Made by a program: the position numbers and the translations under genes
From: Candidatus Angelobacter sp.
Lineage (GTDB): Bacteria > Acidobacteriota > Terriglobia > Terriglobales > Acidobacteriaceae
Assembly: GCA_036488825.1 (NCBI GenBank)
Contig: DASXGZ010000006.1
Span: forward strand, 1,463-65,462
Direction of reading: 5' to 3'
DNA length: 64,000 bases
In this document: positions 1-2,306 of the stretch, in pieces
Position numbering within the stretch: the stretch's first letter is position 1
How the letters are laid out: the number at the start of each line of letters is the position of its first letter
Notes under the pieces: generated by a model
Databases searched by the model: none
What the model saw: only the letters and a program-made list of their open reading frames with translations
Told to the model about the DNA's origin: nothing

Positions 1-2306
1 ACGTTGGGTAGGGGCGTTCCCAGACTCGGGGTTTCAGAATCTCTGAAGAAGCAAGCAGTTGCATCCACAGTGCATTCTGTGGGACCGTAAACATTCAAAA
101 ATAGTATCTTCTGGGCCGCCGTGGGTATCTTCCAATCGGCTTCAGTTAATGCTTCTCCGCCAACCAGCATGAGTCGAGGCGCGTAGACGTTCGCGCTGCC
201 GAGGCCTTCAGCCTTCAGCAATCGGAGCACTGATGGAGTGCAATCGGCCACGTCCACAAAATTCTGGGCCAGGTATGTCAAAAGTTCGCGAGGGTTCGCC
301 CGCACTGCTTCGGGAGTGAGATACAAGGTATGACCCCACGCCATCTGAATCCATTGTTTTACGGAACCATCAAAAACCAGCGACGCATTGACTGCTACCT
401 TCAACGGCCCAGGCAGACTGTATACCGCCTCACGTAAGGCATAGGTCAGATTCGCTAACGACCTGTGTTCGATCATCACGCCTTTGGGCGCGCCCGTCGA
501 CCCCGACGTGTAAAGAATGTAGGCGAGATTTGCGCTGTCGAGTTTACTCTCCAGGTTGTCTTGGGATAACTCCCCGATTGCCGCTGCCTCGCTATCCACG
601 CAAACCAGCTTCGTTTGCTGGTCAGCAAAACGGGCCGCAAAGCATGATCGAGTCAGCACCAAATCCGGTTTGCAATCAAGCAGAATGCGCAGGGTGCGCT
701 CGGCTGGATGATCCGGCTCGACGGGAACATACGCGCCGCCGGCCTTCATTACCGCGAACAGTCCTATAATAAGGTCCGCAGACCGTTCCAGACATATCAG
801 CGCGCATCGCTCCGGCCCGATTTCCAGCCGCCGCAAATAACGAGCCAGTTGATTGGCACGTGCGTTAAGTTCGAAAAAGCTCAATTGTTCTTCCCCAGCC
901 ACCAGTGCCAAGGCTTCGGGTGTGCGCTCCACCTGCTCCTCAAACATCTCCGGCCAGATCTGATCGGAGGGGAACGACACTTGCGTATCCACCCACTCAC
1001 CCAGGATCTGTCGCTGTTCCGACTCCGCCAGCATCGGCAACTCCACGATTCTCAGTCCAGCGGCTCCCGGAGCGGATTCCAGCAAGGTTCGTAGCTCTTG
1101 CGACAACCGATCCAGCACCTCCGGTGCCCATGCTGAGCTCTTGTACTCAAACTCCAGTTGCACCGCGCCTGTTGGTAATAATTTGGCATTCAGAGCGAGG
1201 CGCGCCCTGCTTGGCAGACCAGGTTGCCGCTGCATCGTACAGCGGATGCCGCCTACTGTTTCCGGTTCGGGCAAGCGCTGGAATCGGAAAGCCACGTGGG
1301 ATTCGATTGCTGCCTGTTTCATTGACTCCCAAGAGAGGGAATCTTGCATCAGCCGAACCAACTCGTACTGCTCTGCCGTTTTGCGGATACACTCGCCCAG
1401 TTGCAAATTGTTGCCGCATTCCACGCTGACCGGCAGAAAATGCTCAAACACACCGAAGGCTGAGTTGAGTTCCTCGACTCGCCGCCCGTCATACCAACAG
1501 TGCACGCTCACTTTTTGTTGGTCGGTGAGACGGGCCAGGAGCGCGCACCAGCATGTCAGCAAAAAGACTTCCGGAGAACCGCCGGTCCGACGGGCTGCCT
1601 CTTCGAAATCTTTCAGGCAAATCGACTGGAGTATTGAAATCGCACCCTCGTCCTTCCGGTCCTGTGGGCCAAAGCTGATCTCGGTGGGCAAGACGGGAAT
1701 CGGAACGCACTCTACAACCTGCTTGCGCCAAAACTCGCGGCCTTCTTCGCCTTCTTCACTGCTGAATATCTCCCTTTGCCATTCAGAGAAATCGACATAT
1801 TGAAGAATCTCACCCTCAGCCGACTTGCATTCCGTTTCATACCATTCGAGGATTTCAGAAGCGAAACGCTCAAACGTGATGGAATCGGCGCACATCGAAA
1901 GAAGTGTTATGACCAGAACATGTTGATGCGGAGAAATGGTTTGCACCACGAAGCTGGCAAACGGACCGTTCTCGGGATCGAGCCAGACTTCTTCATGTGG
2001 CCGGCCTTGTCTACCGGGGTCGCCGTTGCGGTCTTCAGTCATCATGACTCGGAATTCTATTTTTGGGGCTTCAGCTATGACTTGGAGCGGGAACTCCATC
2101 CCCGGCAAAGAAGCAAAGCCCGTGCGCAGTATTTCGTGGCGGTTCACGATACCGCGCAGCACGTCTCCCAATCGCGCTACGTCGAGTGGTCCCTCGAGCA
2201 AAAGCGCACACTGTGACTGGGCAAGAGAGCTTTGTTTCTGCTGTAAAGGCCAGATTCTCTTTTGCTGAGCTGAAAGATGAAATCCTTCGATTGTTGTCTT
2301 CATCAT
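1..2306 (-). CDS. Non-ribosomal peptide synthetase, N-terminal part (C-A...); 3' end lies beyond the window start
   Basis: Not in the ORF track because no stop lies in the window. Manual translation of the minus frame from ATG 2306 (second ATG 2303) stays open to position 1. It gives MMKTTIEGFHLSAQQKRIWPL (C1), RHEILRTGF (C2) and YVDFSEWQ (C4). A-domain motifs follow: LAYILYTSGSTGAPKGV (477-527), FDGSVKQW (351-374) and NVYGPTECTVD (63-95). Confidence 0.9.
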   Translation of the reverse strand, partial: MMKTTIEGFHLSAQQKRIWPLQQKQSSLAQSQCALLLEGPLDVARLGDVLRGIVNRHEILRTGFASLPGMEFPLQVIAEAPKIEFRVMMTEDRNGDPGRQGRPHEEVWLDPENGPFASFVVQTISPHQHVLVITLLSMCADSITFERFASEILEWYETECKSAEGEILQYVDFSEWQREIFSSEEGEEGREFWRKQVVECVPIPVLPTEISFGPQDRKDEGAISILQSICLKDFEEAARRTGGSPEVFLLTCWCALLARLTDQQKVSVHCWYDGRRVEELNSAFGVFEHFLPVSVECGNNLQLGECIRKTAEQYELVRLMQDSLSWESMKQAAIESHVAFRFQRLPEPETVGGIRCTMQRQPGLPSRARLALNAKLLPTGAVQLEFEYKSSAWAPEVLDRLSQELRTLLESAPGAAGLRIVELPMLAESEQRQILGEWVDTQVSFPSDQIWPEMFEEQVERTPEALALVAGEEQLSFFELNARANQLARYLRRLEIGPERCALICLERSADLIIGLFAVMKAGGAYVPVEPDHPAERTLRILLDCKPDLVLTRSCFAARFADQQTKLVCVDSEAAAIGELSQDNLESKLDSANLAYILYTSGSTGAPKGVMIEHRSLANLTYALREAVYSLPGPLKVAVNASLVFDGSVKQWIQMAWGHTLYLTPEAVRANPRELLTYLAQNFVDVADCTPSVLRLLKAEGLGSANVYAPRLMLVGGEALTEADWKIPTAAQKILFLNVYGPTECTVDATACFFRDSETPSLGTPLPN

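What the first reader, a model, noticed from the sequence alone, without database searches (positions are those of the whole stretch)
1875..1907. First condensation domain of the downstream NRPS lacks the catalytic HHxxxD motif (LSMCAD instead)
The N-terminal C domain of the NRPS starting at 2306 keeps good C1 (SAQQKRIWPL), C2 (RHEILRTGF), C4 (YVDFSEW) and C5-like motifs. At C3 it reads VITLLSMCADSITF (LSMCAD at 1884-1901), where MHHxxxDG is expected, so both histidines are absent. The C domain of the upstream synthetase has a normal HHLVAD (8446-8463).

His-less C-like domains are known as non-catalytic scaffolds, for example glycopeptide X domains and interface domains that recruit trans-acting tailoring enzymes. 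If that applies here, it raises the question of how acyl-Gly is joined to the next residue. It also raises the possibility that this domain recruits the neighbouring methyltransferase or MbtH-fusion protein.
Basis: seen in the sequence. Interest (0 to 1): 0.65.

Follow-up and report, generated by a model that had tools for sequence, protein, structure and literature searches.

The report
His-less interface-type NRPS condensation domain
The histidine-free condensation domain is real, but it belongs to a large, already described family of non-catalytic "interface" domains that open a peptide-synthetase subunit; what is unusual here is that the hydroxylase and the working condensation domain that normally accompany it are not in view.

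Summary
The minus-strand NRPS starting at 2306 reads VITLLSMCADSITF where MHHxxxDG is expected. An independent soil-metagenome assembly gives the same sequence.

It is not a one-off mutation. I found 173 distinct relatives, all at the N-terminus of a synthetase subunit and all His-less (consensus LP[AS]LC[AS]D). Of 152 with enough upstream DNA, 118 follow an upstream subunit ending in a normal HHxxxD C domain plus a TauD-family dioxygenase. Another 21 follow such a C domain without TauD.

This layout matches the "interface (I) domain" of Reitz et al. 2019, which antiSMASH 8 now detects. The A domains behind these domains read Asp, His, Gln, Asn or Glu; the one here reads Glu (DGKDLGVVD).

The three nearest relatives (39-44% identity, Acidobacteriota) are laid out as ...T-C(HH) | TauD | TauD | I-A(Glu).

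The window differs. Its upstream synthetase (FAAL-T-C-A(Gly)-T) ends in a carrier domain, and no TauD lies anywhere in the 64 kb. A GAMT-like methyltransferase, an MbtH fusion and a type II thioesterase sit at that position instead.

The domain is most likely a non-catalytic scaffold. The gene cluster runs off the window, so how acyl-Gly meets Glu stays open.

The parts
1002..2306 (-). Interface-type (His-less) condensation-like domain, residues 1-435 of the downstream NRPS
   Evidence: Pfam PF00668 scores 132.5 bits. It scores 357 bits against an HMM of 167 His-less relatives and 147 bits against an HMM of 297 catalytic C domains. The AF2 model has pLDDT 86.5 and TM 0.80-0.83 to solved C domains.
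1884..1901 (-). LSMCAD, the site of HHxxxD (C3 motif). H1 is replaced by L and H2 by S; the Asp is kept; the following Gly is replaced by Ser.
   Evidence: Translation and coordinates. Alignment to Txo2. The family consensus at this site is LP[AS]LC[AS]D.
2..944 (-). Adenylation domain of the same module, cut by the window edge after core motif A5. Specificity code DGKDLGVVD, Glu-like.
   Evidence: Pfam PF00501 covers residues 455-768. The code was extracted by alignment and calibrated on Asp, His, Gln and Asn codes in relatives.
5542..10932 (-). Upstream synthetase FAAL-T-C(HHLVADF)-A(Gly, DILQLGMIWK)-T with a tail of about 45 residues. It has no terminal C domain.
   Evidence: Pfam and NCBIfam. 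A-domain code. It is 38.6% identical to L083 NRPS1 residues 64-1787, but nothing matches that protein's terminal C domain.
8446..8463 (-). Canonical HHLVAD of the upstream C domain
4245..5108 (-). Guanidinoacetate-N-methyltransferase-like methyltransferase. It lies where relatives carry TauD genes.
   Evidence: PDB 1xcj at E=1e-23. Weak Pfam Methyltransf_25 hit. Absent from 151 related loci.
3583..4248 (-). MbtH-like domain, poly-Pro linker, then a C-terminal domain of about 115 residues with unknown function
   Evidence: Pfam MbtH covers residues 29-78. The C-terminal part has no PDB sequence match and none in 151 loci.
2657..3457 (-). Type II thioesterase, directly upstream of the His-less domain gene
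   Evidence: Pfam PF00975 at 2e-51
11595..12500 (+). LuxR-family regulator, divergent from the synthetase genes. It is the likely right-hand border of the gene cluster.
   Evidence: Pfam GerE. No NRPS or TauD hits beyond position 10,953 in the window.

Best explanation
The domain is an interface-type (I) pseudo-condensation domain. It has a complete C-domain fold but has lost both histidines of HHxxxDG.

It occupies the C slot at the N-terminus of a Glu-activating module. In relatives, the peptide bond onto this module's amino acid is made by an ordinary C domain at the end of the preceding subunit. One or two TauD-family Fe/2-oxoglutarate dioxygenases are encoded between the two genes.

By inference, the His-less domain keeps the C:A platform of the module and gives the trans C domain and the hydroxylase a surface to dock on. 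That would let them reach the amino acid held on the module's carrier domain.

What is shown here: membership of the sequence family, loss of the motif, the position in the protein, the Glu-like code and the predicted fold.

What is inferred: that the domain is non-catalytic in this cluster, and that its partner C domain (with or without a hydroxylase) is encoded beyond the left edge of the window, or is not needed because the module starts a chain. Neither partner is present in the 64 kb examined.
For: (1) Six database relatives and 21 giant NRPS representatives carry the same His-less motif, always at protein residues about 1-440.

(2) Genome scans gave 151 loci with 173 distinct such domains in Cyanobacteria, Acidobacteriota, Binatia, 'Deltaproteobacteria' and Chloroflexia. 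Of 152 evaluable domains, 118 have an upstream terminal C(HHxxxD) plus TauD, and 21 have such a C without TauD. The intervening gene is TauD by Pfam (1e-38 to 1e-46).

(3) HMM test: the window domain scores 357 bits against the family HMM and 147 bits against the catalytic-C HMM. The upstream C domain scores the reverse, 158 and 375.

(4) A-domain codes behind these domains read Asp 62, His-like 31, Gln 10, Asn 9 and Glu-like 6 of 144. The window reads DGKDLGVVD, against DAKDLGVVDK for Glu.

(5) The nearest relatives L081, L082 and L083 (39-44% identity) are laid out ...T-C(HH) | TauD | TauD | I-A(Glu-like).

(6) The published architectures match. These are potashchelin FAAL-ACP-C-TauD-C-A(Asp)-PCP (PMC7100376), cyanochelin C, and I_MxgB in front of a Glu A domain (PMC13638107). 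antiSMASH 8 carries a profile for interface domains (PMC12230676).

(7) The AF2 model shows a complete two-lobed C fold.
Against: The two context features typical of the family are missing in the window. The upstream synthetase ends in T plus a short tail, not in a C domain. tblastn finds no TauD anywhere in the 64 kb.

No domain in view can make the acyl-Gly to Glu bond.

I equated my sequence family with the published I-domain clade from matching architecture and literature descriptions. I did not score it with the published profile, and the Reitz 2019 paper was not available.

Nothing here tests catalysis.
Confidence: 0.7

Rival explanations
1. The His-less domain still catalyses condensation. 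It would take acyl-Gly from the carrier domain of the upstream synthetase and join it to Glu by substrate positioning alone, without the histidine.
For: By gene order the donor carrier domain, with a tail that may be a docking element, is the last NRPS domain before this module. No other C domain is in view.

One relative has the same problem. In L111 (Nostocales HT-58-2) a FAAL-ACP gene is followed directly by I-A(Gln)-T, with no C domain or TauD in 10 kb upstream.

The predicted fold is complete and confident.

From general knowledge, the catalytic role of the second His is debated, and the myxoglucamide paper notes this.
Against: About 92% of family members are supplied with a normal C domain in trans, which would be redundant if the domain were active. 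Both His residues and the Gly of DG are lost. The region corresponding to motifs C5-C7 has its own family consensus instead. The cluster is cut by the window edge, so absence of a partner is not shown.
Confidence: 0.12
2. The I-A(Glu)-T module is a chain-starting module, so no condensation is needed at its N-terminus. Acyl-Gly from the upstream synthetase is then released by the type II thioesterase, or joined later by another C domain.
For: About ten of 152 relatives have no NRPS domain upstream, or follow a line that ends in a thioesterase. Examples are L026 and L033, whose upstream protein ends in a TE-like GTHETM region, and L021, L036, L079 and L051. A type II thioesterase gene lies directly upstream here.
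Against: Two initiation systems in one operon-like gene string is unusual. The upstream synthetase has no TE of its own and carries a possible docking tail. The homologous cluster L083 is a single line.
Confidence: 0.1
3. The domain is a relic. An ancestral ...T-C | TauD | TauD | I-A(Glu) junction was broken by loss of the terminal C and TauD genes and insertion of the methyltransferase, MbtH and thioesterase genes. The line is now defective or rewired.
For: The closest homologous cluster, L083, has the same FAAL-T-C(..DF)-A-T start but with the extra terminal C and two TauD genes at exactly this junction.
Against: All ORFs are intact. The window domain keeps 55 of 75 family-conserved positions, within the 44-58 range of its three nearest relatives that do have partners. 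The upstream A domains differ (Gly code here, DAVGMGAAYK in L083), so the two clusters are not simple orthologues.
Confidence: 0.06
4. The domain recruits the neighbouring GAMT-like methyltransferase or the MbtH fusion in place of a hydroxylase.
For: These genes lie where the nearest relatives carry TauD genes.
Against: Neither protein occurs in any of the 151 related loci. MbtH proteins are known partners of A domains, not C-like domains (general knowledge).
Confidence: 0.04
5. Sequencing or assembly error, or a chance substitution.
For: None found.
Against: An independent contig is identical over 6 kb. The motif is conserved in 173 relatives.
Confidence: 0.01

Closest known systems
NRPS interface (I) domain of beta-hydroxy-amino-acid modules (Reitz et al. 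2019, doi 10.1073/pnas.1903161116; examples in cupriachelin, potashchelin and cyanochelin clusters)
   Same: It belongs to the C superfamily and has no HHxxxDG. It sits at the N-terminus of a subunit directly before the A domain. In sequence it groups with domains that follow C-TauD.
   Different: There is no TauD and no trans C domain in the 64 kb seen. The A domain reads Glu rather than Asp or His. The domain belongs to a divergent acidobacterial subclade, keeping 55 of 75 family-conserved positions against a family median of 71.
I_MxgB of myxoglucamide biosynthesis (MxgA FAAL-ACP-C-Ox followed by MxgB I-A(Glu)-PCP; PMC13638107)
   Same: A lipid-initiated line and an N-terminal I domain in front of a Glu-loading A domain.
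   Different: In Mxg the upstream protein ends in C-Ox and beta-hydroxylates Glu on the carrier. Here the upstream protein is a complete Gly module ending in T, with no oxygenase. MxgB is described as lacking the second His; here both are lost. The sequences were not compared directly.
AMB cluster of Pseudomonas aeruginosa: ambB (A-T-C), ambC and ambD (two Fe/2OG oxygenases), ambE (461-residue N-terminal region of unknown function, then a Glu-loading A domain); PMC4357302
   Same: The gene layout A-T-C | oxygenase | oxygenase | unknown N-terminal region-A(Glu) is that of the window's three nearest relatives, L081-L083.
   Different: It is not known whether the AmbE N-terminus is homologous, because its sequence was not at hand. 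The window itself has no oxygenases.
Glycopeptide X domain (Tcp12; PDB 4tx2)
   Same: A non-catalytic C-like scaffold that recruits tailoring enzymes. The fold is similar, with TM 0.82.
   Different: The X domain sits near the C-terminus of the last module, keeps HRxxxDD and recruits P450s. It scores 134 bits against the family profile, compared with 205 bits for Txo2.
N-terminal C*-like domain of ACV synthetases (PMC7884236)
   Same: A C-like domain at the N-terminus of a first module; the paper was found by a search for domains lacking HHxxxDG.
   Different: It comes from a different lineage and context. I did not compare the sequences and read only the abstract.

Membership tests
NRPS interface (I) domain | Homology and fold of the condensation-domain superfamily | tested here: met
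   Pfam PF00668 scores 132.5 bits. AF2 pLDDT is 86.5, with TM 0.80-0.83 to solved C domains.
NRPS interface (I) domain | Catalytic HHxxxDG motif absent | tested here: met
   LSMCADS aligns to HHxxxDG.
NRPS interface (I) domain | Located at the N-terminus of a synthetase subunit, directly before the A domain | tested here: met
   The domain covers residues 10-435 and the A domain starts at 455. The same holds in all 173 relatives, by the selection criteria and.
NRPS interface (I) domain | Groups by sequence with I domains rather than with catalytic C subtypes | tested here: met
   357 against 147 bits with my own HMMs. The I set was defined here by motif and TauD context. The published or antiSMASH profile was not available, so the identity of the two sets rests on matching architectures.
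NRPS interface (I) domain | Module loads a residue that is beta-hydroxylated on the carrier (Asp, His, Asn, Gln or Glu) | tested here: inconclusive
   The A code DGKDLGVVD is Glu-like, and Glu is a known case. Hydroxylation itself cannot be inferred here.
NRPS interface (I) domain | Fe/2-oxoglutarate (TauD-family) hydroxylase fused to or encoded next to the preceding subunit | tested here: not met
   tblastn finds no TauD in the whole 64-kb window. TauD is present within 4 kb upstream in 126 of 152 relatives. The cluster continues beyond the window.
NRPS interface (I) domain | Preceding subunit ends in a catalytic C domain that serves this module in trans | tested here: not met
   The upstream synthetase ends in T plus a tail of about 45 residues. 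Such a C domain is present in 140 of 152 relatives.
Catalytic LCL / DCL / starter condensation domain | Second histidine of HHxxxDG | tested here: not met
   Ser at that position.
Heterocyclisation (Cy) domain | DxxxxD in place of HHxxxD | tested here: not met
   The first position is Leu. Cy structures score only 57-60 bits against the family profile.
Glycopeptide X domain | HRxxxDD motif, position after the last carrier domain, and P450 partners | tested here: not met
   The motif and position differ. No P450 is in the cluster part seen.

The most novel reading that the evidence does not exclude
Some interface-type domains work without either partner. In the window, and in L111 (FAAL-ACP | I-A(Gln)-T), a donor carrier protein hands its acyl chain to a His-less domain that still supports amide-bond formation. 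Alternatively, the domain docks a carrier-terminated subunit so that a distant C domain can act. This would be a histidine-independent or purely scaffolded condensation step in lipopeptide initiation.
Probability: 0.12. Interest if true: 0.75.

Novelty: new member of a known kind. Interest (0 to 1): 0.35.

Why it matters
For annotation, a C domain flagged as inactive at the head of an NRPS subunit should first be tested for the interface type. Its partners (a trans C domain and a TauD hydroxylase) should then be looked for, because they change the predicted product to a beta-hydroxy-Asp, -His, -Gln or -Glu residue.

The survey adds four points:
- The family is large (at least 173 distinct domains in 151 loci) and spread over at least five phyla.
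- About 14% pair with a trans C domain but no hydroxylase. The domain is therefore better described as a split-module adaptor than as a hydroxylase interface only.
- A few members head chain-starting modules.
- Rare cases, including this window and L111, show a carrier protein upstream with no C domain at all. These are the cases worth testing biochemically.

Tried and rejected
(1) I could not recover the source genome to see the rest of the cluster. It is not in genome contigs and not in the gene index. A soil-metagenome contig extends only about 1.35 kb beyond the window, and its sequence cannot be read with these tools.

(2) The first profile search of 1.8 billion proteins ranked giant NRPSs by summed C-domain score. 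It became useful only after I re-scored each domain myself.

(3) Alignments A3 and A2 were too divergent for locus scanning. Smaller alignments A4 and A5 worked.

(4) The first AF2 run with 7 sequences gave pLDDT 55.6 and was discarded.

(5) A second word-index protein search found no relative closer than 39% identity and no named characterised protein.

(6) The Reitz 2019 paper is not held. Several papers that cite it gave no description of the domain.

(7) I could not test whether the AmbE N-terminus belongs to the family, because no AmbE sequence was available. AmbB ranks too low in the PDB search for its alignment to be printed.

(8) The promoter and terminator scan between the genes found nothing above chance.

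(9) The X-domain, Cy-domain and artefact explanations were rejected.
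Full report
**Observation.** On the minus strand an ORF starts at ATG 2306. A TGA lies two codons upstream, so no longer N-terminus is possible. The ORF runs off the left end of the window, and 768 residues are visible.

Pfam finds a Condensation domain at residues 10-435. It scores 132.5 bits, compared with 282 bits for the C domain of the upstream synthetase. 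An AMP-binding domain follows from residue 455.

The sequence VITLLSMCADSITF is encoded with LSMCAD at 1901-1884, as reported.

A profile alignment to the Txo2 C domain puts L-S on the two histidines of MHHIVSDG, D on D and S on G. The real C3 motif is therefore not elsewhere in the domain.

A contig assembled independently from a soil-metagenome run covers window 1-6000 without a single difference.

**It is a family trait, not a mutation.** The six database relatives of the domain all read LPALCAD, LPSLCAD or LPALLAD at this site.

I ran a profile search of 1.8 billion representative proteins and re-scored every C domain in the 150 hits. The 21 best-scoring His-less domains among those hits lay at residues about 1-440 of very large synthetases (3,600-7,100 residues). 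The other 871 C domains in those proteins had HH.

Two scans of one-genome-per-species contigs gave 151 loci. They come from Cyanobacteria (Nostoc, Fischerella, Scytonema, Microcoleus), Acidobacteriota (Pyrinomonadaceae, Blastocatellia, Terriglobia), Binatia, 'Deltaproteobacteria' and Chloroflexia.

**Context of the family.** I mapped domains on all ORFs of these loci. I used BLAST with the window's own domains, a TauD query, and an HMM that reads out the C3 motif of each C domain.

After removing duplicates there are 173 distinct N-terminal His-less domains, of which 152 have at least 4 kb of upstream DNA:
- 118 have an upstream subunit whose last NRPS domain is a C domain with HHxxxD, plus a TauD-family gene or fused domain between it and the His-less domain.
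- 21 have such a C domain directly abutting the His-less domain, without TauD.
- 13 have other arrangements.

The intervening gene is TauD by Pfam.

In the TauD-less type (for example L005, from Terriglobales and Binataceae) the order is FAAL | KS-AT-DH-KR-ACP | free-standing C | I-A-T-C-A-T | MbtH | TEII.

**Identity with a described family.** This is the layout reported for beta-hydroxyaspartate siderophores. Potashchelin is FAAL-ACP-C-TauD-C-A(Asp)-PCP (PMC7100376). In cyanochelin C, a C domain and TauD at the end of one protein work with the next protein to make beta-OH-Asp.

Reitz et al. 2019 named the His-less member the interface domain. antiSMASH 8 now has a profile for it (PMC12230676).

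In myxoglucamide biosynthesis, MxgA is FAAL-ACP-C-Ox. MxgB starts with an I domain in front of a Glu-loading A domain, and the Ox domain beta-hydroxylates Glu on the MxgB carrier (PMC13638107).

I could not read the 2019 paper or use its profile. The link between my family and the published clade therefore rests on architecture and on these descriptions.

**Placement of the window domain.** It scores 357 bits against an HMM built from 167 family members without the window sequence. It scores 147 bits against an HMM of 297 catalytic C domains from the same loci. The upstream C domain gives the reverse, 158 and 375 bits.

The A domains behind these domains have textbook codes for Asp (DLTKIGHVG, 62 of 144), His (DSALIAEVW, 31), Gln (10), Asn (9) and Glu (6), plus a DARHMGVID group (14). 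The window reads DGKDLGVVD, one residue from the Glu code DAKDLGVVDK.

The nearest relatives are L081 (Ca. Angelobacter), L082 (Bryobacteraceae) and L083 (Terriglobia), at 39-44% identity. All three have Glu-like codes, and all are laid out ...T-C(HH) | TauD | TauD | I-A. L083 even reads FLSMCADS.

This subclade is divergent. Its members keep 44-58 of 75 family-conserved positions, against a family median of 71. The window keeps 55, so it is not more decayed than relatives that have their partners.

**Fold.** With a 35-sequence alignment, AlphaFold2 gives pLDDT 86.5 and pTM 0.88. Foldseek matches catalytic C domains (Txo2, TycC6, DhbF, LgrA) at TM 0.80-0.83. The X domain matches no better (TM 0.82, rank 34), and sequence identity never exceeds 22%.

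The fold is complete, and no interface domain appears to have been solved. The tools do not let me inspect the active-site tunnel.

**What is odd here.** The upstream synthetase aligns with L083's first synthetase over FAAL-T-C-A-T at 38.6% identity. It stops after the T domain with a tail of about 45 residues, where L083 continues into a C domain. No TauD is found anywhere in the 64 kb.

In place of the TauD genes lie three other genes:
- A methyltransferase that resembles guanidinoacetate N-methyltransferase (PDB 1xcj, E=1e-23).
- An MbtH domain fused to a C-terminal domain of unknown function.
- A type II thioesterase.

Neither the methyltransferase nor that C-terminal domain occurs in any of the 151 loci. 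There is therefore no comparative support for the idea that the His-less domain recruits them.

All NRPS hits in the window lie below position 10,953, and a LuxR gene follows. The cluster must therefore continue to the left, off the window.

**Interpretation.** The best-supported reading is a non-catalytic scaffold of the interface type, with its partner C domain not in view. Partner genes are not always adjacent. In L006 the matching C domain lies downstream of the I-domain synthetase, and in L015 it lies 5 kb upstream.

Some family members head chain-starting modules. Examples are L026 and L033, which follow a thioesterase-terminated line, and also L021, L036 and L079.

One relative shares the window's problem. 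In L111 a FAAL-ACP gene is followed directly by I-A(Gln)-T, with no C domain or TauD in 10 kb upstream. These rare cases leave room for a His-independent or scaffold-only condensation, which I rate as unlikely but worth testing.

**A lead not tested.** The layout A-T-C | oxygenase | oxygenase | N-terminal region-A(Glu) of L081-L083 is also that of ambB-C-D-E in Pseudomonas aeruginosa. AmbE there has a 461-residue N-terminal stretch of unknown function (PMC4357302). I had no AmbE sequence to score.

**Verdict.** It is explained by a known domain type, so the finding is mostly ordinary. The residual interest lies in the missing partners and in the breadth and sub-architectures of the family.

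Noticed in passing
window 4245-5108 (-): A 287-residue methyltransferase resembling guanidinoacetate N-methyltransferase (PDB 1xcj, E=1e-23) sits between an acyl-Gly-forming module and a Glu module. Its stop overlaps the start of the MbtH-fusion gene. Its substrate is unknown.
   Followed up: partly
window 3583-4248 (-): An MbtH-like domain (residues 29-78) is joined by a poly-proline linker to a C-terminal domain of about 115 residues. That domain has no PDB sequence match, only a weak sub-threshold Pfam CBF_beta hit, and is absent from 151 related loci.
   Followed up: partly
L111 7702-14593 (Nostocales cyanobacterium HT-58-2, CP019636.1): A FAAL-ACP protein is followed directly by a His-less I-type domain (LPSLCADM), then A(Gln)-T-C. 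There is no catalytic C domain and no TauD in the 10 kb upstream. A lipid-initiation step has no visible C domain.
   Followed up: partly
L005, L008, L009, L011, L016, L029, L047, L076 (Binataceae, Terriglobales, 'delta' MAGs): A conserved cluster type: FAAL | KS-AT-DH-KR-ACP | free-standing C (VHHIVIDF) | I(LSSFCAD)-A(DARHMGVID)-T-C-A-T | MbtH | TEII. It has no TauD, so the I-type domain pairs with a trans C domain alone. In L006 and L015 the C gene lies elsewhere in the locus.
   Followed up: partly
L026 and L033 (Herpetosiphonaceae); also L021, L036, L079: I-A-T modules that appear to start an assembly line, either after a thioesterase-terminated synthetase or with no NRPS gene upstream. 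In most of these a TauD gene lies directly upstream.
   Followed up: partly
L081, L082, L083 versus the P. aeruginosa amb cluster (literature): The acidobacterial layout A-T-C | TauD | TauD | I-A(Glu) mirrors ambB-ambC-ambD-ambE. The 461-residue N-terminus of AmbE has no assigned function (PMC4357302) and might be a divergent I-type domain.
   Followed up: no
L083 10002-10140: The first 45 or so residues of the I-type domain in this MAG do not match the family N-terminus (EGFxLSxQQ), and the called ORF starts late, at GTG 10074. This may be a frameshift in the long-read assembly.
   Followed up: no
window 12,500-64,000: No NRPS, PKS or TauD similarity lies to the right of the LuxR gene. The ORFs listed up to 30 kb look like ordinary housekeeping genes, for example a protein of glycyl-tRNA-synthetase type at 27514-30650. 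These names are from reading the translations, not from a search.
   Followed up: no
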